Shown piece after piece: positions 20,428 to 59,340 of a stretch of 64,000 nucleotides of DNA; the first letter of the stretch is position 1; each line of letters begins with the position of its first letter. The notes beneath the pieces are model-generated. The model saw only the letters and a list, made by a program, of their open reading frames with translations, was not told the DNA's origin and ran no database searches. Both the position numbers and the translations under genes were made by a program. The stretch is taken from the sequence record PZ445534.1; one strand, given 5' to 3'. Origin of the DNA: a phage.

Positions 20428-20437
20428 TTTCTTTACA

Positions 20438-20457
20438 GGGGCTTTATAGCCCCTTTT
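20438..20457 (+). terminator. rho-independent terminator
   Basis: GGGGCT-ttat-AGCCCC hairpin followed by TTTT. Confidence 0.5.
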
Positions 20458-20473
20458 AAGAGGAAAATTTATA

Positions 20474-27414: not shown

Positions 27415-28518
27415 TTACTCATAATCCCTAATAACTAGCCCGACAGGGAACTGTAAAGAACCCTTACGAGTCATCTTCTGGAACTGAACCGTTAGAGGCT
27501 TCCCGATAAACTCTTCAGGATGCTCAGCAAGATACTGTTTCTTCTCATGAGTAGTCTTCCATGAGACATCTACAAAGACGTTAGGAAGAGTCTCTACAAC
27601 GAACTTACCATGACCACGTTTATCAGTCTTTACACCAGTAACTTTAAACTCTTCAGTGTGCATCTTCTTGTGCTTAATCAAGAAGTATGAACGGTGACCA
27701 CACTCATAGAAAGATTCTTCAGAGATTGAACGGTACATTGCACCTTCAAACTTAGCTTCAACCCACTTATCATGAGCTTCATCAAATTCTTCCCAAGAAT
27801 TTACACGACGAGACTTAACAGGAACAACTTTACAGCCATCTCTAAAGTCATTCAATGGTGAAGTCTCAATAATATCTCTACGCTCAGGCCACGTCTTAGT
27901 GCTGTCACAGATATCGTACCAGTAAAACTTGAGTAAATGTCGGTCAGGATTGTCTTCATTTTTAATCATGGAGACAATATCTTCTAAGTCCCACCCATGA
28001 GCATAAATCTCACCATCAAATTCATCAACATCTTTATGGAGCCTCAACATTGCCATAATGTCAGGTATTAGCTCAGTAGGAATTTTATAAATAGTGTTCT
28101 CACGAGAATATGCTGTAAATACACTGCCAATACTCAAGTGTCTTGAAATTCTACAACGGACACCATCAAGTTTTGGTTGAGCATCAGCAGGGAACTTCAG
28201 ATACTTTGCATGGCTAACCTTTGCAGCATCATGAGCAAGCTGTACACCTACCTTCTCAGTATTCTGTGCAGACTCTTTTGTGTAAGCATAACCTTTGCGG
28301 TCTACTTGCTTTTTATACTTAGCAGCAACTTCAAAGAGAGCTTGCTGTTCAGCATTACGCTCATTCTTTTTACCGATGTTCTTAGGCTCTGCTGTGTACT
28401 CTTCAAACATCATCTTGCCATTTTCTTTACCATAGGTTGTAATAACTTTGTTACCTATAGCACCGCATGACCAGATGTTGAAGGAACCGTCTTTATTTTG
28501 TTTGTATAGTGTTGTCAT
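27415..28518 (-). CDS. ATP-dependent DNA ligase
   Basis: 367 aa; adenylation motif I KLDGVR (PKLDGVRC). Confidence 0.8.
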   Translation of the reverse strand: MTTLYKQNKDGSFNIWSCGAIGNKVITTYGKENGKMMFEEYTAEPKNIGKKNERNAEQQALFEVAAKYKKQVDRKGYAYTKESAQNTEKVGVQLAHDAAKVSHAKYLKFPADAQPKLDGVRCRISRHLSIGSVFTAYSRENTIYKIPTELIPDIMAMLRLHKDVDEFDGEIYAHGWDLEDIVSMIKNEDNPDRHLLKFYWYDICDSTKTWPERRDIIETSPLNDFRDGCKVVPVKSRRVNSWEEFDEAHDKWVEAKFEGAMYRSISEESFYECGHRSYFLIKHKKMHTEEFKVTGVKTDKRGHGKFVVETLPNVFVDVSWKTTHEKKQYLAEHPEEFIGKPLTVQFQKMTRKGSLQFPVGLVIRDYE

Positions 28519-30689: not shown

Positions 30690-30962
30690 TACATCTGGTC
30701 AATACACTCGCAAGGTGTACCAGTTCTCTTATGAACTTCTCCGCATTTCTACGGAGTGTCGGACTATATCACGTAGCAGTGGTGCTACCGTTGCACTTGG
30801 GATGGTCATTAGCTTACCACCCTACTCTACTCAGTTCATACGTTAAGTATGCTTTTCGATAGTCTCTGAACGTTCCTCTTAAGAGGCTTCGCTGCTGATT
30901 ACCATATCTTTACAGACTTAGGCTTCCAGCAATTCACAACGTTTTACATGCGCCACTGACGC
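30687..30962 (-). ncRNA. putative ORF-less group I self-splicing intron in DNA polymerase gene (boundaries approximate, +/-10 nt)
   Basis: Separates polymerase motif A/B from motif C; minus strand carries group I P7-like elements AGACTATCG and GATATAGTCCGAC; in-frame TAA just inside 5' end. Confidence 0.6.
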
Positions 30963-33131
30963 ATAAATGCCATTTTTGGCTTTCTTACGACCTTTTGTAA
31001 TCTCGTGGAGAAGTTCCTCATCCTGTGTCTCCCTACAACGAACAATGTCTTCTTCCTTGTTCAGACCAAAGTAAATACTATTCAGTGTATGTGCATCAGT
31101 ACCTGTGTAGACTTCATAGAGGTCATTCTCAGCATCATAACGCAGATACTTGTCAGTTTCTGGGTTAAGATACTTGTCAAGATGCTTGCAGTAGTATCTA
31201 CCATCATCTTGCTTAGTGAACTCAACTGACTCTTTACCCTCAGTTACCGCTTTAGTGAAGTCTTCATCACCCATAAAGTTACAAAGAAGAACTAGCTGGG
31301 CTGAGTTTTGGTCTACAGAGACAACGTTAGTACCTTCTTCACAAATCCACACCTCCCTCATAGGTGCTCCATAGACAGCAGCACCAGACGGTACGTTTAC
31401 AATACCATATTGTGTCATACGTCCAGTTGAAGTACCAAACACCATTGCACCAGCACTAAGGCGACCATCAGGACGAATCTGGTTCAACCAACCTTTTTCA
31501 TCATCTTTTGAGTTCTCAATAGTTCTACGTCGGTGCATCAAAGTATAGTACTTAGCAATCTTCTGTCCAAGCTCACCTTCAATCGTATCATAAGATGATT
31601 CAGTAAGTTTTGGTGAAGTACGGATTAAGCAAGGCTCAAGCAAATCTGTGTATTTCTTCACAGACCAGTTATGCTCAATGTACTGGACACCTTCATGCTC
31701 AACATAGCTCAAACCACACCGCTCAACCATTTCCTGCCACTTAGGATGCTTTGTAATCATCTTTTTATTGTCTTTGAAACGACAAACTTTGATAGGGCGA
31801 CCATCTGAGTCTTTCTTGTAATTCCAGTCATCTGGAATCCAACCAACTGATTTCAAGTAGTCTTTAACAACTGCTACCTGAGTCATACGAGAAACTTCAA
31901 ACTCAATTGGTGTATATGGTGCATCAATCAAACCTGTGTAGCGACTTGACTCAAGTTCAAAGTGGTTAACAACGTGGCTGTTATAGTACTTCACAGTTTT
32001 GACTGTTTTTACTGGCTTCCAGTCTTTGCATTTCTTACCAATCTTTGCGTTCAACTCATTGCAAATTGCACGAGCATCCTTCATTGCTACAAAACCTTCC
32101 TTGTACTCTTCACCAGTTACAGAGTTGGTTGGTGTATAGCAATTCCTTTTTTCAATGTTAAAAATCTTTGTAGTTGGCTTACCAAATGGTTTGATTTCGT
32201 ATGTCTGCATCTCACCATTACGTACCTGCTGACGATACTTTGTCTTAGGGTACTTGGTAATTCTTTTCAGTCCATCTGCATGACCAAATGTTTCAACATA
32301 CTCATTCCAAGCTTTTGCAAACTCTTCTCCAGTGACTTTACCTTTGGTCTTAATAGTTGGAGGAAGATGTGGTTCAACCTCTGAAGCAAGCTCATTAGTC
32401 AACTTGTCAAGTTCCTTTACATGGAACTCCATAAGCTCTTTATCAGCTTTCCAACCATTAATAGCTTGTTGACTCATCCAGAAAGATGTTTCTTTAGCTC
32501 GCATGTAGGTTTCATAAGTGTCTATGCCACACTTCTTAAGCTTGAGATACTCATTATCAAGTGCCCGTTTAGTTTTGGCGTTAATACGGATATCTTCTAC
32601 AACACGAGTGAAGATTTCTGCATTCCACACACCCCAATGTTCAATCTCTGGTTTACGAACACCAACACGAGCACCCCATGCAGCCAAGCCATGAGCACCT
32701 TTATAACCCTTTGGAGTTGGTCTATCCATCCACTGAACACGAGACTGGATAAGAGAATCCTGAAAGAAATTACTCCACGGCTTACACTTTGGATTATCAA
32801 AGTTCCATAAATCCGGTGCAATGTGATTGAAAACCCACCAGTCATAACCTAGACCATTATGAATGCAAAGACGTTTTGCCTTTAACGCAAACTCAACACC
32901 TTCACGTAAGCCACCCTTAATGTACTTGGTATACTTGTGACCGAGGATAGGCTCATCTGTAAAGACCCATACAGGCGGCTCTTTATCGTCAGATTTATAG
33001 TCTGCGAAAGCCATTACGTGCACTTTAGTGAACTCAAGGAGTAAACCATCAGTTTCTGTATCACCAACTAAATGTAAGTTTTTAAAATCTACGTTTTCCA
33101 TTTTTACTCCCTCTAAAATCATTAACCTCAT
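30918..33131 (-). CDS. DNA polymerase (family A) 5' exon: 3'-5' exonuclease domain and N-terminal polymerase domain; last ~14 codons of ORF are intron read-through
   Basis: Exo I motif DTETDGL; motif A VDQNSAQLVLL (cf. DYSQIELR); motif B start RKKAKNGIY. Confidence 0.8.
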   Translation of the reverse strand: MRLMILEGVKMENVDFKNLHLVGDTETDGLLLEFTKVHVMAFADYKSDDKEPPVWVFTDEPILGHKYTKYIKGGLREGVEFALKAKRLCIHNGLGYDWWVFNHIAPDLWNFDNPKCKPWSNFFQDSLIQSRVQWMDRPTPKGYKGAHGLAAWGARVGVRKPEIEHWGVWNAEIFTRVVEDIRINAKTKRALDNEYLKLKKCGIDTYETYMRAKETSFWMSQQAINGWKADKELMEFHVKELDKLTNELASEVEPHLPPTIKTKGKVTGEEFAKAWNEYVETFGHADGLKRITKYPKTKYRQQVRNGEMQTYEIKPFGKPTTKIFNIEKRNCYTPTNSVTGEEYKEGFVAMKDARAICNELNAKIGKKCKDWKPVKTVKTVKYYNSHVVNHFELESSRYTGLIDAPYTPIEFEVSRMTQVAVVKDYLKSVGWIPDDWNYKKDSDGRPIKVCRFKDNKKMITKHPKWQEMVERCGLSYVEHEGVQYIEHNWSVKKYTDLLEPCLIRTSPKLTESSYDTIEGELGQKIAKYYTLMHRRRTIENSKDDEKGWLNQIRPDGRLSAGAMVFGTSTGRMTQYGIVNVPSGAAVYGAPMREVWICEEGTNVVSVDQNSAQLVLLCNFMGDEDFTKAVTEGKESVEFTKQDDGRYYCKHLDKYLNPETDKYLRYDAENDLYEVYTGTDAHTLNSIYFGLNKEEDIVRCRETQDEELLHEITKGRKKAKNGIYASVAHVKRCELLEA

Positions 33132-37575: not shown

Positions 37576-37984
37576 TAGTTATAAAAGAGAGGGATTCATA
37601 CCCTTCTTTCAAGAAAAAAGTTTAAATGAATTTCAGGAAGAGTGTTTGACAAAGATTGATAGGTTCTATAGAATGCTCTACATGAAATGTGATGGAGGTG
37701 TTGAGGTAGAAGAAAAGTTCCATCATAGTATTATCACAGTCACTATTACTATACCTGAACATAATATTGGTTGGCTGTTTATAATGAAAGAAAATGTGTT
37801 TGAATATCAAGTATATCGGAGAATATCATGAAACACTCTAAAGCATTTGAAAAAGTTTTTGGGGATTCCTTAAAAGCCACTGCTGGAAAACCAGCAAAAT
37901 ACTATGAAGAGAAGCGTGTAAGAACTGGAAAAACTGCACGTAAAGCAGCTTCTAAAGATAAGCACAACTTCCAGTAATTAGTAT

Positions 37985-38013
37985 TTGACAATAGAGTATC
38001 AACAAATTAGAAT
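37985..38013 (+). promoter_or_regulatory. sigma70-like promoter TTGACA-17-TAGAAT upstream of SSB gene
   Basis: TTGACA 37985-37990, 17 nt spacer, TAGAAT 38008-38013. Confidence 0.4.
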
Positions 38014-38049: not shown

Positions 38050-38907
38050 ATGTCTAAAGTTGTTAAAATGAAAGCTCCGGTAGAGAAGTACAACGGTACT
38101 GAACGTCAAACTCTGCGTTACCTGCTGAAAGATGTCTGGTTTTATTACCTGAACACTTCACCACGTCCGGGAAAAGGTAAGTCTATTGATAAGAAATTCC
38201 CAGGAAAAGATTGTAACTACAGCGTATCAATTCTGGCAGAAGACGGTAACAAACTGTTTAAAGAGTTTACTAAGTCTAAGAAAAATCCAGAAGGCTGGGA
38301 TAAAGTTACTACTGAAGCAGTTGATGCAGATGACTTCGAAGAGAAGTTTGGTTGTAAACCACCTTTTGAAGCAGACACTTACTACATCTTGAAAGTAAGT
38401 CGTGCAGCAGCTTATAAAGATGGTGCTGTATGGACAGCTAAACAGTCATTCCCTGTAATGCTGATTGAAGAAGTAAATGGTAAGCGTGTAGCTGTTAAGC
38501 AGCCGATGAAGAAAATCAAAGCTCAAGCATCTGATAAACATGAAGATGACAAGAACTATGATGTAATTCATCCAGATATTGCAGTTGGCAACGGTTCTTT
38601 TGGTAGTGTGATTCTTTCTACTCACTTCTACACTTTTGAGAACAATGTTCTGACAAAACCTATTCAGGAACAGTTTATCATTGACACTCTTGTACCTTAC
38701 ACTGGTGGTAACGGTGCTAATGGTGAGCCTGAACTGGATGAAGATGAACTGGCTATGCTTGGTCTTGATGGTGTTGAAGATAACGGTGAAATCACTGAAG
38801 AAGACGCAACAGACCATAAACCTTCGAATGCTTCTGATGATGGTGATGATGAAGATTTACCAGACCCAGATGACGAAGAAGATGAAGACTTCGATACAGA
38901 AGACTAA
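38050..38907 (+). CDS. single-stranded DNA-binding protein (T7 gp2.5-like) with acidic C-terminal tail
   Basis: 285 aa; C-terminus DDGDDEDLPDPDDEEDEDFDTED; position between primase-helicase and exonuclease. Confidence 0.55.
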   Translation: MSKVVKMKAPVEKYNGTERQTLRYLLKDVWFYYLNTSPRPGKGKSIDKKFPGKDCNYSVSILAEDGNKLFKEFTKSKKNPEGWDKVTTEAVDADDFEEKFGCKPPFEADTYYILKVSRAAAYKDGAVWTAKQSFPVMLIEEVNGKRVAVKQPMKKIKAQASDKHEDDKNYDVIHPDIAVGNGSFGSVILSTHFYTFENNVLTKPIQEQFIIDTLVPYTGGNGANGEPELDEDELAMLGLDGVEDNGEITEEDATDHKPSNASDDGDDEDLPDPDDEEDEDFDTED

Positions 38908-46767: not shown

Positions 46768-47964
46768 ATGAACAAAGTACAGATTATTAAAAAGAATGGC
46801 TCACTTGAAGAACCTGATATCAAAAAAGTTTTAGCAGCAGTCACAAAGTCAGCTAACAGAGTTGGTTATAAAGAGCTTCCACCAGATGTTACTCAAGCTC
46901 TTGAGTCAGCATTTATGAGGATTCTGGTAAAGTCCACTAAGCAGAATAATTTGCTAATTTCGGTAAATGATATTCACAGTATTGTTGAGGGTGCTTTGGC
47001 AGAAGTCAATCACGAGATTTATGAGTCTTACTCAACATATAGAAATTACCGTAAAGAGGTTGCTCAAAATTGGGATGAACTCTACCAGAAGACCAAAGAT
47101 ACACTCTTCTTAGGCGACCGAGAAAACGCTAATTTTGACAGCAGTTTAATTTCTACAAAAGGCTCAATTATTCGTGGTTACCTGACTAAAGAAATCTTTA
47201 AACAGTACCATTTAACACCAGAGGAACTTGAAGCCATTGAAAAAGGATTTATCTATATCCATGATTTAAGAGACCTAATTTTTGGTGGTATCAACTGTTG
47301 CCTGTTTGACATTGGTAAAGTCCTGAAAGGTGGCTTTGAAATGTCTGGCATTGAATATTGTGAACCGAAGTCTGTGCTGTCAGCCTTACAGGTTATTGGT
47401 GATGTAGTTCTTTCAGCAACTGCACAGCAATTTGGTGGCTTTACTTTAGCAGAGATTGATAAGGTACTTGTACCGTATGCTAAGAAGTCTCTACGTTACC
47501 ATGCTGAAAAAGCAACAGCTTATGGTATTCCTAAAGAACATTACCACAACTATGTCATGGAGCAGCTACAGATTGAATTAACTCAAGGTTTTCAGTCTCT
47601 TGAAATGAAGCTCAATACTGTGCCTTGTAGCCGTGGTGATTTTGCATTCACAACTTTGACATTCGGGTTACTTGACTCAGATATGTCTAATGAAGATAAC
47701 CGACTGCAATACATGATTGCGAGCACTCTCCTAGATGTTCGTATGAATGGACAAGGTAAGAGCAAGAAACCTGTTGTATTCCCTAAACTGGTTTATATTT
47801 ATGACCAGAAGAGACACAATGAGAATATCTGTCAAGGCCACCTGTACAGTAAAGCTATTGAGTGTTGCTCTAAAGCTATGTATCCAGATTTCTTAAGTGT
47901 ATCTGGACATGGTGCTGTAGCAGAGGCTTTTGAGCGTTCTGGCAAGGTAATTTCCCCGATGGGT
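46768..47964 (+). CDS. nrdD: anaerobic ribonucleoside-triphosphate reductase, exon 1
   Basis: N-terminal ATP-cone; exon ends ...ISPMG before intron that begins with in-frame TAA. Confidence 0.85.
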
Positions 47965-48280
47965 TAACAAGCTCTATAGCTCATCTAAAACGTGCCTAAA
48001 CAGGGAAACTCTACAGATGTAGACAATCCTGTGCTAAATGATGTACGATGTAAGAAACTATACAACATAGGAGTCTTACATGCCAAATAACTTCGAATAT
48101 GAGTTTGAATACATCTAAATGCCGAACGACTAACCGTGATGAATGTAGCGGTGTAGGGTCAAGCGACTCGAAATGGTACGCTACTTAGAAATAAGTAGAA
48201 GATATAGTCTGGACTTACTGGCGACAGTAAGCAGCTTGAATAAAGCGGGGTAAGCTTAGCGAACTTACTTGAACAACAAG
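47965..48280 (+). ncRNA. group I self-splicing intron (ORF-less, td/nrdD-like) in nrdD
   Basis: 316 nt; strongly resembles T4 td intron core as recalled (CCTAAACAGGGAAACTCTACAGATGTAGACAATCCTGTGCTAAATG; GTAGGGTCAAGCGACTCGAAATGG; AGATATAGTCTGGAC); exon 1 ends in T, intron ends in G, spliced frame preserved. Confidence 0.8.
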
Positions 48281-53386: not shown

Positions 53387-55168
53387 ATGACTAAATCACT
53401 TTACGCAGTACCAGCAGGTCTTAATGCAGATGCTTACAAGGCATCACATATATATCAGTATCCAGATGCTACGCAATATCTTATGTTGAACCTGACACCA
53501 CGTAGTGATAAATGGTTTAACAGCCCTTTGGCAATTGACGGTGTAGTGGCTTTTGGTATTCAACGTTTCGTTAAAGATTACTTGATAGACCACTGGAACG
53601 CCACTTTCTTTGAACGTGATAAAAAAGAAGCCATTGATGAAATCTTAGAAGTCATGAATGGTGTTCTGGGTAAAGATGCTATCGGTCGAGAGCACTGGGA
53701 AGCACTTCACGACTTAGGTTATCTACCAGTTGAAGTATACGCTGTAGAAGAAGGTACAGTTGTCCCTATGCGCGTCCCAATGATTGTCTTCCAGAACACT
53801 GTTTCAGGCTTCCATTGGGTAGCGGGGTATCTGGAAGATGCTTTCTCTGCTGAGATTTGGAAGGCTTGTACCATTGCAACTATTGCATTGCACTACAAAC
53901 GTATCTGTAAGAAGTGGGCTGACCTTACTTGTGACAACGACTTGCATTTGCCTTATCAGTGCCATGACTTTGCTATGCGTGGTATGTCCGGCTTTACTGA
54001 TGACGCATTTAACGCTGTAGGCCACTTAACCAGCTTTAAAGGAACTGATAGCTTCCCTGCTGTGTATACGGCTAAACGAATCTATGGACAGTCCTACCCA
54101 ATCTCTGATATTGGTAGCTCTGTACCAGCCACTGAGCACTCTGTAATGTGTGCAAACATTGCTTGGGAAGGTGGTAATGAGTTGATTGAAGAAGAAAGAC
54201 GCTTTAAAGGTGAGTTACAAACCTTCCGTCGTTTCTTAACAGAAACTTACCCAACTGGTATTGCAAGTGTTGTTTCAGACACTTATAACTTCTGGAGAAC
54301 TGTGTCAGAAATTTTACCAGCACTTCGTAAAGAAATTATGGAACGTGATGGCAAACTGGTAATTCGTCCTGACTCTGGAGACCCTGTACATATTGTCACA
54401 GGTTATAAAGCAATCCACTTAGAATGTGCTAAAAAGGCTTATTACGAGCACCTAAGCAAGCTGGAAGCCAGTGACACAATGTTGAATGCTGTTCTGAACA
54501 TGAAGCTTGAAAATATCAACTATGGTATTGCTGGATGGCTACTGTCAGAAGGCTACGAAATGGTTGTTGACAGAGAAGACTTTGAAGTTGCTGATACAGT
54601 GATGTTGAAAAATGCTTATATGGTTGGTTCTGCAAACGTTGTAACACGTCCTGTAGCTGAGATTGATGGAGCTATTAAGACACTGTACAACATCTTCGGA
54701 GGGACTATTAACTCTAAAGGGTTTAAGGTACTGGATGAGCACATCGGCCTTATCTATGGTGACTCTATCACGCTGGAACGTGCAAACGAAATCCTGAAGC
54801 GTCTGTATGAAATGGGTTTTGCAAGCTCTAACGTAGTGTTTGGTGTAGGCTCTTACACTTACCAGTACATGACTCGTGACACCTTTGCATTTGCTGTCAA
54901 AGCAACTCTTGCAAGCATTGGTGGTAAAGAGATTATGCTTGCAAAAGACCCTAAAACAGATAGTGGTGTTAAGAAATCTGCCTTTGGTGGTGTAGCACCT
55001 ATGTGGGATGGTGATAAGCTGAAAGCTGTAGATGGCTATGGATTCCAGAGTTTTGCAGATGTACTTGACCACCAAGCTTGTGCTTTACGTTTAGTCTTTA
55101 GCGACTCTGAGCAGTTCGGTTATACAACTCTTGGAGATATTCGAAATAATATTGACAAGCAGCTTTAA
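53387..55168 (+). CDS. nadV: nicotinamide phosphoribosyltransferase (NadV/NAMPT-like)
   Basis: 593 aa; N-terminal DAYKASHIYQYP matches NAMPT signature DSYKVTHYKQYP as recalled; adjacent to prs. Confidence 0.75.
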   Translation: MTKSLYAVPAGLNADAYKASHIYQYPDATQYLMLNLTPRSDKWFNSPLAIDGVVAFGIQRFVKDYLIDHWNATFFERDKKEAIDEILEVMNGVLGKDAIGREHWEALHDLGYLPVEVYAVEEGTVVPMRVPMIVFQNTVSGFHWVAGYLEDAFSAEIWKACTIATIALHYKRICKKWADLTCDNDLHLPYQCHDFAMRGMSGFTDDAFNAVGHLTSFKGTDSFPAVYTAKRIYGQSYPISDIGSSVPATEHSVMCANIAWEGGNELIEEERRFKGELQTFRRFLTETYPTGIASVVSDTYNFWRTVSEILPALRKEIMERDGKLVIRPDSGDPVHIVTGYKAIHLECAKKAYYEHLSKLEASDTMLNAVLNMKLENINYGIAGWLLSEGYEMVVDREDFEVADTVMLKNAYMVGSANVVTRPVAEIDGAIKTLYNIFGGTINSKGFKVLDEHIGLIYGDSITLERANEILKRLYEMGFASSNVVFGVGSYTYQYMTRDTFAFAVKATLASIGGKEIMLAKDPKTDSGVKKSAFGGVAPMWDGDKLKAVDGYGFQSFADVLDHQACALRLVFSDSEQFGYTTLGDIRNNIDKQL

Positions 55169-55181
55169 AAGTATATGATAA

Positions 55182-55206
55182 GAGGCTCCTACGGGAGCCT
55201 TTTTAA
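55182..55206 (+). terminator. rho-independent terminator
   Basis: GAGGCTCC-tacg-GGAGCCT + TTTT. Confidence 0.55.
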
Positions 55207-55221
55207 TTTCTGGAGAAGACT

Positions 55222-55557
55222 ATGAAAATCAAAGAAATGAACATCAACATTGTCTTAGAAGAACGTTGGGAGAACATCAAGAAGCCTGAAGATGGTAAAA
55301 AGTTCCTTAACAAAATTTTAGTAGCAGCTAAAGAAGAACTGACTGGCAAGATTGCAGCAGCAATCACAATAAAAATCTGTGTAAAAGGTCTTCCACAACA
55401 TCACCAATTTGCACTTGACGAGTTTAAAGAAAGCTTCTACAATCCAAACAAACAGATGCTTGAAAGTAACTTTGCAGTGTCTACAAGTATCGTCCATGAC
55501 AGAAGCTTTATCCTTTACAAGAATATGAGAGGTGAGTCATGCAAGCATATTGGATAG
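55222..55557 (+). CDS. hypothetical protein
   Basis: 111 aa ORF. Confidence 0.35.
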   Translation: MKIKEMNINIVLEERWENIKKPEDGKKFLNKILVAAKEELTGKIAAAITIKICVKGLPQHHQFALDEFKESFYNPNKQMLESNFAVSTSIVHDRSFILYKNMRGESCKHIG

Positions 55558-55715
55558 AAATTTTACTGTCACTTGGTAGTGTAGCAGTATTTGTTTACCT
55601 TCTTTGCAAGTACTATGCAGAGCACAAGAAGTGTGATTACTGCAACGGGGAAGGGTACACAAGAGCAGGCTGTTGCCCTATGTGTGGTGGTTCTGGTAAA
55701 ATGTTTAATAAGTAA
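55539..55715 (+). CDS. small membrane-anchored Cys-rich (CxxCxGxG-type) protein, not in ORF track
   Basis: 58 aa from ATG 55539; N-terminal TM helix then CDYCNGEG...CCPMCGGSG zinc-finger-like repeats. Confidence 0.3.
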   Translation: MQAYWIEILLSLGSVAVFVYLLCKYYAEHKKCDYCNGEGYTRAGCCPMCGGSGKMFNK

Positions 55716-55743: not shown

Positions 55744-58110
55744 ATGCGCATGGTAAATGACCACGCAGAAGTGATTAAGAGTTCAACTTCTTTAGAGACG
55801 TCTCAAGCACAGATTACAATGACACCTGAGATGTTCAGCCTTTTGAGTTCTGGTGTATACACCTTTAAAGAAAGGGCAGTGATTCGCGAACTGTCATGTA
55901 ACGCAGTAGATGCTCAGAAAGAAGCTGGAAAAGAGAACATCCCATTCCATGTGCATTTACCTACTCGTTTTGAGCCTTACTTCGAAGTTCGTGATTTTGG
56001 AACTGGATTGACTCATGATAAAGTTATGAGTTTGTACCTAAACTATGGAGCTTCTACGAAGAATGACTCTAATGACTACATTGGTGCAATGGGTATCGGC
56101 TCAAAGTCACCATTTGCAATTGCTCAGTCATTCACAGTATCTAGCTATGTTGACGGTGTTGTTAATAAATACTCTGTTTATCTTGAGAATGGTATCCCTC
56201 AAGTAACTAAGCTGACAACTAACCCAACAAAAGAACCTAATGGTTTGGCTGTACGTGTGGCAGTTGCTGACCACCGTATCTCAAAGTTCTTTGAAGAAGC
56301 TGGAAATGTGTACTCATACTTCACTGTAAAACCAGAAAGTAATATTGAGTACGACGATGTATTAGCAGATATGAACGTCATTGCCCGTGAAGAAGGTGTT
56401 TATGATGCCATGATTCATAAGCAAAGCTGGCGTTCTAGTGGTAACAGGACAGAGTTTAATGTGGTGATGGGTAATATTGCCTATCCAGTGAACATGGAAG
56501 CATTACTTGGTGATGATTTCTTCAAAGTCTTGCCAGAGTTTTTCCGTAGGAGCGTAGACCTTGTAAACATCTACATGCCTATTGGTTCAGTTGCTATAGC
56601 AGCTTCTCGTGAAGCATTGCAGATGAATGATACGACAAAAAATGTTATCATCGAGGCTACCAAAAAGATAACTGAAGCAATTACAAAGGATGTTATCAAG
56701 AAAGTTAATAGTCAACCTACACTTATGGATGCTGCACAGGCTTATGCTGAGTTACGTTTGAACTCACGAGAGATGTTTAATGCTGTGTGTCCAAAGCTAG
56801 AGTGGGGAGGCGTTAAGCTTGATTCTCTGGAAGAAGAATTACTAAACATTCGTCGTGGAATTATCTACGCAGAAGACGGCTCAGTCATTTATGAACGTGA
56901 CGGCAAAGGTAATATTAAGGTTGATAGGAATGGGAACAATATCCCTAAAGTAGATTATCTTTATGACCCAGTTGCTTATGTCAAGTTCAACTCTTTAGAG
57001 AGTAAGATTCGTGCAACATCACTTTCCTACACTCAAGAGGCAAGTATGTTCAATATCTTTGGCGCAATGCGTAAAAGCCAAATTGAACAGTTTTTGTTTG
57101 TTATAAATGACCGTCGAAATAAAAACGGTACTGAGAAGACTGTAGGACGCAACCAAATCTTGCGTGGTGCATGTCGAGACTATGCCAGTGAATCAAGTCT
57201 GTTTCACAGATACAATGGTATTGTCTTTGTATTCTCTACAGAGAAAGAGCTAGACGACTTAATCAATCTGCACAAACTTGATAAAAGCTTGTTAAAGATT
57301 GTGAAGATGTCTGATAAGGAACATCATTATCAGCGTAAAGAAGCTGTAAGAGGCGTTGTAAAACTTTGGAAAGCTGTTCCAGCAGAAGGTGTAGCTTCCT
57401 ATAAAGAGGTTTCAGAGGACTTTGATACAATTGAAGAACCTCAGCTTTACATTAAGGCAGTCGGTGACACAGTTGATGGTGAATGTTTTTGCTCATCTCC
57501 AGAAGATGTAGCTAAGTCAGTTGCTAATGTTACAGGTAAGACAGTCTATGTTTTCCGAAAAGCAAATTGGAAAAAGATACCAGAAGACTGGATTGAAGTA
57601 GATGAGAAACTCTTGAACGACAGCTTAACTGATGTTCATTGGATTAATCATAACAGGTATATGACACGTATCTATATGAATGGTGTCCTCGACCTTACAA
57701 GCAGTTGGATTATTGCCAGAAACTTTACGTTCAATAACAGGAAGATTTCTCGTGGCTATTGTTATTCACGGGATACAAACAAAACTATCTTCTTAGAAGG
57801 TAATGAAGATGCTGTAGAGGCAATGTTTGGTAAAATCCAATACGTTGCTGCGCCTTTTGCATACACTTACACTATTAGTGTGTTGCAAGATTTAAAAAGC
57901 TGTCTTGATAATGATACAAAGCTGTACAAGAAAATTAAGAAAGCTGGTGACCGTATGGTCATCAAGGTGACAAACTACCTTTCAAAAAGAAAACAAGAAA
58001 ACTTCTTGCTTTCTCATTTAGATTGGAATAAAGTGTCACCCATCGAAGTGAGTAAGTTCTTAGGCTTTGATGTGAAGTGTGTTCCAGAAGGGACTACAAT
58101 TTACGATTAA
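55744..58110 (+). CDS. rIIA: rIIA-like protein with N-terminal GHKL (histidine-kinase-like) ATPase domain
   Basis: 788 aa; GHKL N-box RELSCNAVDA, G1 box DFGTGL, G2 box GAMGIGSKS; followed by rIIB homolog. Confidence 0.7.
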   Translation: MRMVNDHAEVIKSSTSLETSQAQITMTPEMFSLLSSGVYTFKERAVIRELSCNAVDAQKEAGKENIPFHVHLPTRFEPYFEVRDFGTGLTHDKVMSLYLNYGASTKNDSNDYIGAMGIGSKSPFAIAQSFTVSSYVDGVVNKYSVYLENGIPQVTKLTTNPTKEPNGLAVRVAVADHRISKFFEEAGNVYSYFTVKPESNIEYDDVLADMNVIAREEGVYDAMIHKQSWRSSGNRTEFNVVMGNIAYPVNMEALLGDDFFKVLPEFFRRSVDLVNIYMPIGSVAIAASREALQMNDTTKNVIIEATKKITEAITKDVIKKVNSQPTLMDAAQAYAELRLNSREMFNAVCPKLEWGGVKLDSLEEELLNIRRGIIYAEDGSVIYERDGKGNIKVDRNGNNIPKVDYLYDPVAYVKFNSLESKIRATSLSYTQEASMFNIFGAMRKSQIEQFLFVINDRRNKNGTEKTVGRNQILRGACRDYASESSLFHRYNGIVFVFSTEKELDDLINLHKLDKSLLKIVKMSDKEHHYQRKEAVRGVVKLWKAVPAEGVASYKEVSEDFDTIEEPQLYIKAVGDTVDGECFCSSPEDVAKSVANVTGKTVYVFRKANWKKIPEDWIEVDEKLLNDSLTDVHWINHNRYMTRIYMNGVLDLTSSWIIARNFTFNNRKISRGYCYSRDTNKTIFLEGNEDAVEAMFGKIQYVAAPFAYTYTISVLQDLKSCLDNDTKLYKKIKKAGDRMVIKVTNYLSKRKQENFLLSHLDWNKVSPIEVSKFLGFDVKCVPEGTTIYD

Positions 58111-58121
58111 AGTGTTTGACA

Positions 58122-58139
58122 AGGGGCTTCAAAGCCCCT
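58122..58139 (+). other. stem-loop without T-run between rIIA and rIIB
   Basis: AGGGGCTT-caa-AAGCCCCT inverted repeat. Confidence 0.35.
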
Positions 58140-58189
58140 TAGAATAGCCTTACAAAATGATTTATTAACTAACAAGAGAGAGTAATAAG

Positions 58190-59299
58190 ATGACTACTAA
58201 AACTAAAGCACAGATTGACGCAGAAATTTACGAACTGGTTAAAGAAGGTAAGCTGACTAAAACAGCTATTGCACAGAAGTTCAATACTTCAACCCGTTCA
58301 GTTGGTCGTGCTGTAGAGCGTCATGAAGCAACCTTAAAAGGTAAGAAGAAGGTGACTTCTACACCAGCTAAGAAGACCCTAAAGCAAGTTGCTAAGTCAG
58401 TTAAAAAGAAAGCTGGCAAACCAGTTGAAAAGGCCGTTAAAGATGCTGTACAGAAAGCCCCAGTAAATAAACTGCATGAAGCTATGCAGAAAGATGACAA
58501 GATTGAGTACATGATTACTGGTGACTCTGTAATTATGACTTACGGTTCAGAATCTGAAATTGTTGAGTCTACTCATCCGAACTATCAAGAAATTGTAGTC
58601 CATGTTGTGAAAGGTGAGTTCAAGAAAGCATTTGAACTAATGAACATTCGTAAGTCTATCGAAAACTTCACTCAGGGTGCTATCACAATCAAAGGCGATA
58701 AGCTCTTCTACGGTGCTGTTGAGATGCGTTCTACTCTGGTTGACCGTATTCTTCACATGATGAAGACTGGAGATAAGGGTTTTGAACGCCTTGTGATGTT
58801 CTTCGAAAAACTGATGGAAAACCCATCTAAAGATTCTGTAGAACAACTTTGGGGATTCGTATCTCACCTTGATGTTGAAATTGATGAAGAAGGCTACATC
58901 ATTGGTTGGAAGAAAGTCTCTACTCATGAAGGCAAGCTGGTTGACTCCCACACCTACAGAGTACCTAATGATTTGGGTAACATTGTAGAAATGCCACGTT
59001 GGATGGTTGATAATAACCGTAACGTGACTTGCTCTCAGGGTCTTCACGTTGGTGCTTGGGATTATGTTCGTTGCTTCTCAGGTGATACAATCCTGAAGGT
59101 TCGTGTCCATCCACGAGATGTTGTATCTGTTCCAACTGATTACAACGATATGAAGATGCGTTCGTCTCGTTATGAAGTTGCAGCAATCGTTGATAATCAA
59201 CGTAAAGTGCTGAAAGAATGGGATGGCAAGACTGAAGCTTTGCATGTCATCGTTGGCACTGCTGGTGAACTAATCTCCCAACGTAAACGTGAAATCTAA
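58190..59299 (+). CDS. rIIB: rIIB-like protein
   Basis: 369 aa; blocks resembling T4 rIIB as recalled (LFYGAVEMRSTLVDRIL; ENPSKDSV; TCSQGLHVGAWDYVR; KVRVHPRDVVSVPTDYNDMKMRSSRYEV). Confidence 0.75.
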   Translation: MTTKTKAQIDAEIYELVKEGKLTKTAIAQKFNTSTRSVGRAVERHEATLKGKKKVTSTPAKKTLKQVAKSVKKKAGKPVEKAVKDAVQKAPVNKLHEAMQKDDKIEYMITGDSVIMTYGSESEIVESTHPNYQEIVVHVVKGEFKKAFELMNIRKSIENFTQGAITIKGDKLFYGAVEMRSTLVDRILHMMKTGDKGFERLVMFFEKLMENPSKDSVEQLWGFVSHLDVEIDEEGYIIGWKKVSTHEGKLVDSHTYRVPNDLGNIVEMPRWMVDNNRNVTCSQGLHVGAWDYVRCFSGDTILKVRVHPRDVVSVPTDYNDMKMRSSRYEVAAIVDNQRKVLKEWDGKTEALHVIVGTAGELISQRKREI

Positions 59300-59314
59300 T
59301 AAGTAATTTCTTAA

Positions 59315-59340
59315 AAGGCTGCTTCGGCGGCCTTTTTTAT
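59315..59340 (+). terminator. rho-independent terminator
   Basis: AGGCTGC-ttcg-GCGGCCT + TTTTTT. Confidence 0.55.

What the first reader, a model, noticed from the sequence alone, without database searches (positions are those of the whole stretch)
55744..59299. rIIA/rIIB locus in a phage with lambda-like head and T7-like replisome
The 788 aa ORF has a clear GHKL ATPase N-domain (RELSCNAVDA; DFGTGL; GAMGIGSKS) as in T4 rIIA. The following 369 aa ORF has several blocks resembling T4 rIIB as recalled. In T4 the rII genes counter Rex-type prophage exclusion, but their biochemical mechanism is still poorly understood. A stem-loop without a T-run (58122-58139) separates the two genes and may set their stoichiometry.
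Basis: partly seen in the sequence, partly recalled or inferred. Interest (0 to 1): 0.5.

Follow-up and report, generated by a model that had tools for sequence, protein, structure and literature searches.

The report
Known rIIA-rIIB genes, Felix O1-like phage
The two genes are true relatives of the phage T4 rIIA and rIIB genes, sitting in a Felix O1-type phage where they have been annotated since 2010 and already shown by knockouts to protect the phage from bacterial suicide-type defences, so the finding is correct but ordinary.

Summary
The window is a Felixounavirus (97.6% identical to Salmonella phage SeKF_63). ORF 55744-58110 (788 aa) is rIIA: full-length match to the same PHROG as T4 rIIA, and 32% identity to T4 over the N-terminal ~300 aa. 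Its three quoted motifs are the GHKL N, G1 and G2 boxes. ORF 58190-59299 (369 aa) is rIIB: 36% identity to T4 rIIB over its whole length, E 1e-60.

None of this is new. Felix O1 gene 1/gene 2 are rIIA/rIIB (2010). rIIB homologues occur in 2,911 of 50,697 phage records. Deleting the Bas63 orthologues (98%/84% identical) lowers plating 10^4-10^5-fold on QatABCD hosts. Knockdown in SUSP1 (63%/80% identical) sensitises it to lambda RexAB.

The hairpin at 58122-58139 is real and conserved. T-run-less hairpins with different stems follow the rIIA stop in three other Ounavirinae lineages, so an RNA-level role is plausible but untested. Biochemical mechanism remains unknown, as for all rII proteins.

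Side findings: two group I introns (DNA polymerase, nrdD).

The parts
55152..55179 (+). Promoter-like site TTGACA-N16-TATGAT at the start of the rII transcription unit. It abuts the nadV terminator.
   Evidence: 11/12 consensus match. The equivalent site was predicted by BPROM in UAB_Phi87 at 30,949 (TTGACA / GTATATGAT), Table S1 of PMC4837284. No start site has been mapped.
55180..55204 (+). Intrinsic terminator after nadV (10-bp stem, UACG loop, T-run). It forms the upstream boundary of the unit.
   Evidence: The nadV ORF ends at 55168.
55222..55557 (+). 111-aa ORF of unknown function, first gene of the unit.
   Evidence: phrog_4262, E = 8.8e-68, unknown function. Syntenic in SeKF_63 and Bas63.
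55539..55715 (+). 58-aa predicted membrane protein (one hydrophobic helix plus two CxxCxGxG zinc-finger-like motifs) immediately upstream of rIIA.
   Evidence: Translation. phrog_3931, E = 9e-34. The same type of protein sits in the same position in SUSP1 and Yersinia phage P778. T4 rIIA.1 is unrelated. Annotated 'putative membrane protein' in Bas63.
55744..58110 (+). rIIA, 788 aa.
   Evidence: phrog_612 E = 1.2e-189, aa 1-770 on profile 1-716/725. T4 rIIA has the same best family. 98% identical to Bas63 g84, 63% to SUSP1 rIIA. Annotated RIIA in SeKF_63 and hundreds of records.
55813..56694 (+). rIIA N-terminal region shared with T4 rIIA (aa 24-317). It contains the GHKL/Bergerat ATP-binding motifs: N box R48-A57 (55885-55914), G1 box D84-L89 (55993-56010), G2 box G114-S122 (56083-56109).
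   Evidence: BLASTP to T4 rIIA: 32% identity, E = 9e-37. Motif residues are invariant. Profile against the PDB hits Hsp90/TRAP1/Grp94/HtpG N-domains only, best E = 7.9e-5. NCBIfam HSP90 2.6e-11 and sacsin ATP-binding domain 4.8e-7.
58116..58145 (+). Sigma-70-type promoter-like site TTGACA-N18-TAGAAT between rIIA and rIIB. The inferred start is near 58152, giving rIIB its own transcript.
   Evidence: 11/12 match. Hexamers are conserved in 22 unique sequences of three genera while the flanks vary: 4/24 against 39/55 variable columns, Fisher p = 1.5e-5. The only -10 change is G to A at position 3. Predicted by BPROM in UAB_Phi87 at 27,984. Felix O1 RT-PCR shows ORF2 (rIIB) maximal at 10 min and ORF1 (rIIA) at 25 min.
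58121..58140 (+). Hairpin AAGGGGCU-UCAA-AGCCCCUU (8 bp), 11 nt after the rIIA stop codon, with no T-run. It fills the promoter spacer.
   Evidence: The GGGGC/GCCCC stem is invariant apart from one G to A in 2 sequences, while the loop is variable. Hairpins with different stems occupy the same position in IMG/VR locus L039, Yersinia P778 and Erwinia phiEa21-4, z = -3.0 to -4.9. No Rfam family matches.
58190..59299 (+). rIIB, 369 aa. It has an N-terminal helix-turn-helix-like segment (aa ~10-45, nt 58217-58324), a Lys/Ala-rich linker (aa ~46-100) and a conserved core (aa ~100-339).
   Evidence: BLASTP to T4 rIIB: 36% identity over aa 11-339, which is the whole T4 protein, E = 1e-60. phrog_609 E = 4.9e-89. 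HTH only sub-threshold (HTH_Tnp_ISL3 E = 8e-4). 84% identical to Bas63 g85 and 80% to SUSP1 rIIB.
59313..59340 (+). Intrinsic terminator (10-bp stem, UUCG loop, T-run) closing the unit 14 nt after the rIIB stop.
   Evidence: It equals terminator t2 of Felix O1 (ggctgcttcggcggccttttttatttgtatttt) in Table 2 of PMC3185647. Annotated as a terminator in phage Barry.

Best explanation
This is the rIIA-rIIB counter-defence module of a Felix O1-like myovirus (genus Felixounavirus). rIIA is an N-terminal GHKL (Hsp90-like) ATP-binding domain joined to a lineage-variable C-terminal half. rIIB is a small HTH-like N-terminus, a basic linker and a conserved C-terminal core.

By homology and by experiments on near-identical and related phages, the pair is dispensable on naive hosts. 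It is needed to stop membrane-depolarising or abortive-infection defences (lambda RexAB; QatABCD) from aborting the infection. Both proteins are required, so they most likely act together, with ATP binding and hydrolysis by rIIA driving a conformational cycle (inferred; the biochemical target is unknown).

The genes lie in a unit bracketed by two canonical terminators. The unit reads: promoter-like site, two small ORFs, rIIA, a 79-nt spacer, rIIB. The spacer carries a conserved sigma-70-type promoter (TTGACA-N18-TAGAAT) whose spacer is a GC-rich hairpin. I infer two consequences. rIIB gets its own, earlier transcript that lacks the hairpin. Read-through transcripts from upstream carry the hairpin just 3' of rIIA, where it may pause or weakly terminate RNA polymerase or protect the rIIA segment from 3' exonucleases. 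Together these would uncouple the amounts and timing of the two proteins.
For: Identity of the phage: 97.6% nt identity to SeKF_63, 215 records at >=90%, Ounavirinae/Felixounavirus taxonomy.

Identity of the genes: PHROG hits to the same families as the T4 prototypes; BLASTP to T4; GHKL motifs and Hsp90-only PDB hits; NCBIfam.

Function (from papers): Bas63 g84/g85 deletions drop plating 1e4-1e5 on qatABCD hosts and are complemented (PMC11482910), and the window's proteins are 98%/84% identical with an identical intergenic element. SUSP1 rIIA/rIIB knockdown lowers EOP on RexAB hosts (PMC11879866), at 63%/80% identity. T4 rIIA/B insertions are depleted on RexAB hosts.

Transcription unit: terminators and promoter-like sites. 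Hexamers and stem are conserved against variable flanks, p = 1.5e-5. It is the only one of 35 strong promoter-like sites with a stable spacer hairpin. Same promoter predicted in UAB_Phi87. rIIB and rIIA peak at different times in Felix O1 RT-PCR. Hairpins with four different stem sequences occur after the rIIA stop in four lineages.
Against: No experiment was done on this exact phage.

The C-terminal half of rIIA shows no pairwise similarity to T4. Only the profile spans it.

The Bergerat fold was not confirmed structurally: the single-sequence model failed at pLDDT 33, and Pfam HATPase_c is only E = 0.12.

No transcription start or 3' end has been mapped at the junction. The promoter spacer is 18 nt in Felixounavirus, one more than optimal, and GC-rich.

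Within the alignable group the stem is invariant, so there is no true covariation. Erwinia phiEa21-4 has the hairpin but no TTGACA/-10 pair, and a Hafnia phage has neither. The two elements are therefore separable and neither is universal.

The RT-PCR timing in Felix O1 is end-point and semi-quantitative.
Confidence: 0.85

Rival explanations
1. The hairpin is purely an RNA element of a single rIIA-rIIB polycistronic mRNA: an intercistronic stabiliser or leaky terminator that sets the rIIA:rIIB ratio. On this reading the promoter-like hexamers are incidental.
For: Hairpins without a T-run follow the rIIA stop codon in four lineages with different stem sequences. One of them, Erwinia phiEa21-4, has no TTGACA/-10 pair. 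The stem resembles the stems of genuine terminators of this genome.
Against: TTGACA and TA[G/A]AAT are as conserved as the stem across three genera, while the neighbouring intergenic bases vary. TTGACA also precedes the hairpin in the divergent L039 and P778 loci. rIIB peaks earlier than rIIA in Felix O1, which read-through alone cannot produce. With only UU after the stem, termination should be weak.
Confidence: 0.25
2. The GGGGC-N6-GCCCC palindrome is a DNA operator lying in the promoter spacer. It is bound by a dimeric regulator, possibly the HTH-bearing rIIB itself, giving autoregulation or temporal shut-off.
For: The site has perfect dyad symmetry exactly between -35 and -10. rIIB has an N-terminal HTH-like segment and has been called a transcription factor (PMC7824862). 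This is the only promoter-like site in the window with such a spacer.
Against: The loop exists as TTCAAA and as its reverse complement TTTGAA, and the stem sequence is entirely different in L039, P778 and phiEa21-4. That pattern is typical of a selected structure and not of a specific binding sequence. T4 rIIB keeps the HTH-like N-terminus although T4 has only an 11-nt rIIA-rIIB gap with no palindrome. The HTH match is below Pfam threshold.
Confidence: 0.07
3. The proteins are 'lysis inhibitors', as most database records name them. On this reading they regulate lysis timing and have no counter-defence role.
For: PHROG and GenBank product names read 'RIIA/RIIB lysis inhibitor'. The historical r (rapid lysis) phenotype of T4 mutants points the same way (established knowledge).
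Against: Knockdown or deletion in T4, SUSP1, N4 and Bas63 gives no defect on hosts without the defence system but a strong defect with RexAB or QatABCD. The name reflects plaque morphology, not a demonstrated mechanism.
Confidence: 0.05

Closest known systems
Bas63 (Escherichia phage JohannRWettstein, MZ501086) g84/g85 = rIIA/rIIB
   Same: Same genus, same gene order (prs, nadV, small ORFs, rIIA, rIIB, polynucleotide kinase). rIIA is 98% identical (774/788) and the intergenic promoter/hairpin is base-for-base identical. Both genes have been shown by deletion and complementation to counter QatABCD.
   Different: rIIB is only 84% identical, with the differences concentrated in the C-terminal third. 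Bas63 has one extra small ORF upstream.
Felix O1 gene 1 / gene 2 (rIIA/rIIB), Whichard et al. 2010
   Same: The type phage of the genus. Its genome is conventionally opened just upstream of rIIA, and terminator t2 after rIIB matches window 59313-59340.
   Different: That paper lists five candidate promoters but none between rIIA and rIIB. It reports different RT-PCR maxima for ORF1 and ORF2.
SUSP1 (Suspvirus, Ounavirinae) rIIA/rIIB
   Same: Same architecture and lengths (790 and 373 aa) and the same promoter-hairpin element. Knockdown sensitises the phage to lambda RexAB.
   Different: 63% (rIIA) and 80% (rIIB) identity. The promoter spacer is 17 nt, not 18, and the loop is TGAAAA.
Phage T4 rIIA (725 aa) and rIIB (312 aa)
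   Same: Same PHROG families. The rIIA N-terminal GHKL region is 32% identical. rIIB is 36% identical over the whole T4 protein, including the HTH-like N-terminus. rIIA lies immediately upstream of rIIB on the same strand.
   Different: The rIIA C-terminal half is not alignable pairwise. The window's rIIB has a longer basic linker and a 30-aa C-terminal extension. T4 has an 11-nt intercistronic gap with no hairpin or intergenic promoter. The small upstream gene differs: T4 rIIA.1 is soluble and the window's is a TM + zinc-finger protein.
GHKL ATPases, Hsp90 branch (Hsp90, TRAP1, Grp94, HtpG N-domains)
   Same: The N box (E49, N53, D56), G1 box (D84xGxG88) and G2 box (G114xxGxG119) align to Hsp90-family chains.
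   Different: The similarity is confined to about 130 residues at E about 1e-4. There is no Hsp90 middle or C-terminal domain. It is not a chaperone family member by any curated cutoff (NCBIfam 42.7 bits against a cutoff of 455).

Membership tests
rIIA (T4 rIIA family, PHROG 612) | Full-length profile match to the family that contains T4 rIIA | tested here: met
   Window: phrog_612 E = 1.2e-189, aa 1-770 on profile 1-716/725. T4 rIIA: phrog_612 E = 9e-250.
rIIA (T4 rIIA family, PHROG 612) | Direct pairwise similarity to T4 rIIA | tested here: met
   32% identity over aa 24-317, E = 9e-37. The C-terminal half has no significant pairwise match, consistent with the published 'highly variable C-terminal domain'.
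rIIA (T4 rIIA family, PHROG 612) | Encoded immediately upstream of an rIIB gene on the same strand | tested here: met
   rIIA 55744-58110 and rIIB 58190-59299, both on the + strand.
rIIB (T4 rIIB family, PHROG 609) | Profile and pairwise similarity to T4 rIIB over its whole length | tested here: met
   BLASTP: 36% identity, aa 11-339 against T4 13-312, E = 1e-60. phrog_609 E = 4.9e-89, which is also the best family for T4 rIIB.
rII counter-defence function | Dispensable on naive hosts but required on hosts with RexAB or similar abortive-infection systems | not testable with these tools
   Shown in papers for Bas63 (QatABCD), SUSP1 (RexAB) and T4. Sequence identity of the window's proteins to those tested: 98%/84% and 63%/80%.
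GHKL (Bergerat-fold) ATPase | Motif I (ExxxNxxD), motif II (DxGxG) and motif III (GxxGxG) in order | tested here: met
   E49/N53/D56, D84-G86-G88 and G114-G117-G119 are invariant among the window, SUSP1 and T4 and are aligned to the same motifs of Hsp90/TRAP1.
GHKL (Bergerat-fold) ATPase | Significant sequence-profile match to solved GHKL domains | tested here: met
   32 PDB sequences hit, all Hsp90-family N-domains, best E = 7.9e-5. NCBIfam HSP90 E = 2.6e-11. Pfam HATPase_c alone is sub-threshold at E = 0.12.
GHKL (Bergerat-fold) ATPase | Bergerat alpha/beta sandwich fold in a 3D model or structure | tested here: inconclusive
   The single-sequence AlphaFold2 model of aa 1-330 had mean pLDDT 33.2 and is unusable. 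No rII structure is found in the PDB by sequence.
GHKL (Bergerat-fold) ATPase | ATP binding and hydrolysis | not testable with these tools
   Needs a biochemical assay.
Sigma-70 promoter (site 58116-58145) | -35 and -10 hexamers near consensus with 16-18 nt spacing, conserved in relatives | tested here: met
   TTGACA-N18-TAGAAT, 11/12. Spacer is 17 nt in Susp/Moogle-type loci. Hexamers are invariant except G to A at -10 position 3 and A to T at -35 position 6 in one locus.
Sigma-70 promoter (site 58116-58145) | Mapped transcription start | not testable with these tools
   No start-site data for Felix O1-like phages were found. The only indirect support is the RT-PCR timing.
Intrinsic (Rho-independent) terminator (hairpin 58121-58140) | GC-rich stem-loop | tested here: met
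   8-bp stem with 5 G-C pairs.
Intrinsic (Rho-independent) terminator (hairpin 58121-58140) | Run of T immediately after the stem | tested here: not met
   The stem is followed by TTAGAATAGCC. The terminator scan did not call it, while it did call 55180-55203 and 59313-59336.

The most novel reading that the evidence does not exclude
The 30-bp composite at the rIIA/rIIB junction, a consensus-like promoter whose spacer is a conserved hairpin, could be a dedicated regulatory device of Ounavirinae. In that reading the hairpin insulates or stabilises the incoming rIIA message while the promoter fires through it, or the palindrome is bound by the HTH of rIIB. The phage would then tune the rIIA:rIIB ratio, which could matter because rIIB alone is toxic and is sensed by CARD/gasdermin defence systems (PMC10312443). 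Nothing here excludes this reading, but nothing beyond conservation supports it.
Probability: 0.12. Interest if true: 0.3.

Novelty: already known. Interest (0 to 1): 0.1.

Why it matters
As a discovery it does not matter much. rIIA/rIIB are annotated in every Felix O1-like genome, are found in thousands of phages, and have already been tested genetically in a 98%-identical orthologue.

But this locus offers no special handle on it beyond what T4, Bas63 or SUSP1 already provide.

Two points have modest practical value. First, the locus sits next to the NAD-salvage genes (prs, nadV) that counter Sir2-HerA in Bas63, so this part of the genome is an anti-defence neighbourhood. Second, the conserved promoter-in-hairpin junction is a concrete, easily mutated element for asking whether the rIIA:rIIB ratio matters.

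Tried and rejected
1. Pfam has no rII family. Only sub-threshold hits came back (HATPase_c 0.12, HTH_Tnp_ISL3 8e-4), so it is uninformative on its own.

2. phmmer of either protein against the PDB found nothing usable.

3. The single-sequence AlphaFold2 model of rIIA aa 1-330 had pLDDT 33.2, so it was discarded and no fold search was run.

4. Rfam has no family for the junction hairpin.

5. PADLOC gave only a weak TmtA match to the GHKL region (1e-8) and nothing for rIIB or the small ORFs.

6. The idea that hairpin-in-spacer is a general promoter style of this phage is rejected: only 1 of 35 strong promoter-like sites has one.

7. The idea that the hairpin is a normal terminator is rejected because there is no T-run.

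8. The idea that the 58-aa ORF upstream of rIIA equals T4 rIIA.1 is rejected, since the sequences are unrelated.

9. True covariation in the stem cannot be shown. The stem is invariant in the alignable group, and the other lineages are not alignable.

10. A literature search for start-site mapping in Felixounavirus returned nothing relevant. The first 'rIIA rIIB' search returned Fc-gamma receptor papers.

11. The PhageMaP preprint says Bas63 g84/g85 share '>80%' homology with T4 RIIA/B. Direct BLASTP of the 98%-identical window proteins gives 32% and 36% identity to T4, so that figure cannot be identity to T4.

Full report
**What is there.** The two ORFs are exactly as described: 55744..58110 (+, 788 aa) and 58190..59299 (+, 369 aa), separated by 79 nt. 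The 5-kb region around them is 97.6% identical to Salmonella phage SeKF_63. It is at least 90% identical to 215 records of Felix O1-like phages of Escherichia, Salmonella and Shigella. SeKF_63 is classified Ounavirinae, Felixounavirus, and annotates the two genes as RIIA and RIIB. The window is therefore a Felixounavirus genome segment.

**Testing the rII assignment.** Pfam has no rII model and gave only sub-threshold hits. PHROGs gave a full-length match of the 788-aa protein to phrog_612 'RIIA' (E = 1.2e-189, aa 1-770 on profile 1-716/725). The 369-aa protein matched phrog_609 'RIIB' (E = 4.9e-89). I fetched the T4 genes. They fall in the same best families. Direct BLASTP gives 32% identity to T4 rIIA over aa 24-317 (E = 9e-37), with no pairwise similarity in the C-terminal half. 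For rIIB it gives 36% identity over aa 11-339, covering the whole 312-aa T4 protein (E = 1e-60).

**Testing the GHKL claim.** The three quoted strings are aa 48-57, 84-89 and 114-122. Their key residues (E49, N53, D56; D84, G86, G88; G114, G117, G119) are invariant among the window, SUSP1 and T4. A profile of those three N-domains searched against all PDB sequences returned 32 hits, every one an Hsp90-family N-terminal ATPase domain (Hsp90, TRAP1, Grp94, HtpG). The best E was 7.9e-5, and the alignment runs through all three motifs. NCBIfam adds HSP90 (2.6e-11) and the sacsin ATP-binding domain (4.8e-7), both far below their full-length cutoffs. [quoted passage not shown] A single-sequence AlphaFold2 model was unusable (pLDDT 33), so the fold itself is not confirmed structurally here. 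No rII structure exists in the PDB by sequence.

**What is already known about function.**
- Felix O1's genome paper opens the genome at rIIA, so gene 1 is rIIA and gene 2 is rIIB (PMC3185647).
- rIIB homologues are found by tblastn in 2,911 of 50,697 phage records, across T4-like, N4-like, Vequintavirus, Streptomyces, Caulobacter and other phages. An rII locus outside the T-even phages is ordinary.
- In Bas63, a Felixounavirus, deleting g84 or g85 lowers plating 10^4-10^5-fold on a qatABCD host, and the defect is complemented (PMC11482910).
- I located Bas63 (MZ501086). Its rIIA is 98% identical to the window's, its rIIB is 84% identical, and the intergenic region is identical. SUSP1's proteins are 63% and 80% identical.
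- T6 rIIB also triggers CARD/gasdermin defence and is toxic on its own (PMC10312443).
- The biochemical mechanism is unknown for the whole family.

**The intergenic hairpin.** It is real: A58121-U58140, 8 bp with a UCAA loop. The 50-nt context folds at -15.0 kcal/mol, z = -2.6. It has no T-run. Of 35 promoter-like sites of that strength in the window, this is the only one whose spacer folds stably (-11.6 kcal/mol; the next best is -5.1).

**Conservation of the junction element.**
- In 37 loci (22 unique sequences) of Felixounavirus, Suspvirus and Mooglevirus, the -35, both stem arms and the -10 have 4 variable columns of 24. One of those is a 1-nt indel that makes the spacer 17 nt.
- By contrast, 39 of 55 flanking intergenic columns vary (Fisher p = 1.5e-5), and 3 of 6 loop columns vary.
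- The only -10 change is G to A at its third position, which keeps the critical A2 and T6.
- The promoter is not new either. BPROM predicted it in UAB_Phi87 at 27,984 (TTGACA / CCTTAGAAT) (Table S1 of PMC4837284).
- In Felix O1 RT-PCR, ORF2 (rIIB) is maximal at 10 min and ORF1 (rIIA) at 25 min. That fits an independent rIIB promoter, though the assay is crude.

**Is the hairpin more than a spacer?** More distant relatives suggest that it is.
- An uncultured IMG/VR phage (L039, 59% rIIB identity) has TTGACA followed by a different 9-bp hairpin (z = -3.3).
- Yersinia phage P778 (50% identity) has TTGACA directly followed by a 15-bp hairpin (z = -4.9).
- Erwinia phage phiEa21-4 has GGGCUG-GAAA-CAGCCC (z = -3.0) with no promoter hexamers.
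- None of these has a T-run. A Hafnia phage has only a 20-nt gap and no hairpin.

So there are four different stem sequences at the same place, which argues for selection on structure. This is not formal covariation, because these lineages cannot be aligned and the stem is invariant within the alignable group.

My reading (inference): transcripts arriving from upstream carry the hairpin 11 nt after the rIIA stop, where it may pause or weakly terminate polymerase or block 3' exonucleases. Transcripts that start at the internal promoter lack it.

**The unit as a whole.** A canonical terminator follows nadV (55180-55204). It is abutted by another promoter-like site (TTGACA-16-TATGAT, 55152-55179; also predicted in UAB_Phi87). 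Transcripts starting at that site would lack the terminator's 5' arm. Two small ORFs follow. The second (55539-55715) is a 58-aa predicted membrane protein with two CxxCxGxG motifs, and it is syntenic in SUSP1 and P778 but unrelated to T4 rIIA.1. A strong UUCG-loop terminator, Felix O1's t2, closes the unit after rIIB.

**Title descriptors.** The capsid protein belongs to Pfam Phage_cap_E (1e-77) and the protease is S49, as in lambda. The primase-helicase is a Toprim+DnaB fusion, as in T7 gp4. The polymerase is Pol I-like by PHROG only. The phage has a contractile tail. The description is fair but simply describes Felix O1-like phages.

**Verdict.** The only elements not explicitly described in the papers I read are the hairpin-as-promoter-spacer arrangement and its structural recurrence in other Ounavirinae. 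Both are small regulatory details. Interest is low (0.1).

Noticed in passing
window 30739-31021 (- strand); exons about 33122-30960 and 30692-30135: A group I intron (Rfam RF00028, 61.7 bits, E = 3e-13) interrupts the DNA polymerase gene. Residues 1-721 and 722-907 of the SeKF_63 polymerase map in the same frame either side of about 267 nt that contain a stop codon. The downstream exon is only 80% identical to SeKF_63, against 96% for the upstream one. The region is present in about 100 Felix O1-like records, where it is annotated as two 'DNA polymerase' CDSs.
   Followed up: partly
window 47850-48231 (+ strand); insertion about 47977-48280: A second group I intron (RF00028, 54.6 bits, E = 4e-11) interrupts the anaerobic ribonucleotide reductase gene nrdD. 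It is absent from SeKF_63. Bas63 annotates nrdD as a joined CDS with a homing endonuclease inside. This parallels the T4 nrdD (sunY) intron.
   Followed up: partly
window 58128-58133 and the same position in loci L003-L038: Within Felixounavirus the hairpin loop exists in just two forms, TTCAAA (11 loci) and TTTGAA (15 loci). They are exact reverse complements with no intermediates, and both occur on otherwise identical flanks. This looks like recurrent flip inversion of the loop through the inverted repeat.
   Followed up: partly
window 55539-55715 (+): A 58-aa predicted membrane protein with two CxxCxGxG (DnaJ-type zinc-finger-like) motifs lies immediately upstream of rIIA. The same kind of protein is in the same position in SUSP1 and the distant Yersinia phage P778. 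It could be a third, lineage-specific partner of the rII pair. T4 rIIA.1 is unrelated.
   Followed up: partly
window 55152-55204 (+): A promoter-like site (TTGACA-16-TATGAT) ends exactly where the nadV terminator hairpin begins. A transcript starting there would lack the 5' arm and escape termination, which makes a compact terminator/promoter insulator.
   Followed up: no
window 58190-59299 compared with Bas63 L047:20827-21930: rIIB is much more mosaic than rIIA within the genus: 84% against 98% identity to Bas63, with the differences clustered after about aa 240. rIIB is a known trigger of CARD/gasdermin defence, so diversifying selection or allele exchange is conceivable.
   Followed up: no
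window 53387-55168 (nadV) and the prs gene upstream: The rII unit lies directly downstream of the ribose-phosphate pyrophosphokinase and nicotinamide phosphoribosyltransferase genes. Their Bas63 orthologues (g79, g80) were reported to counter Sir2-HerA. This region is an anti-defence neighbourhood.
   Followed up: no
PHROG profile phrog_609 (no window coordinates): The 1055-position 'RIIB' profile matches rIIA N-domains at positions about 19-310 and rIIB proteins at about 751-1049, for both the window and T4. The family therefore seems to include fused rIIA-N/rIIB proteins, a hint that the two parts act together.
   Followed up: no
window 20432-20460 (+): This is the only other GGGGC...GCCCC palindrome in the window (TTTACA-GGGGCTTTATAGCCCC-TTTT). 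It sits between a late gene and the tail-fibre gene and does carry a short T-run, so it looks like a leaky terminator. The stem is nearly the same as at the rII junction.
   Followed up: no
window 37646-37674 and 37985-38013 (+): Two more sites share the exact hexamer pair of the rIIB promoter (TTGACA-17-TAGAAT). The second lies in the gap before the 285-aa gene at 38050. They may be further promoters of the same class.
   Followed up: no
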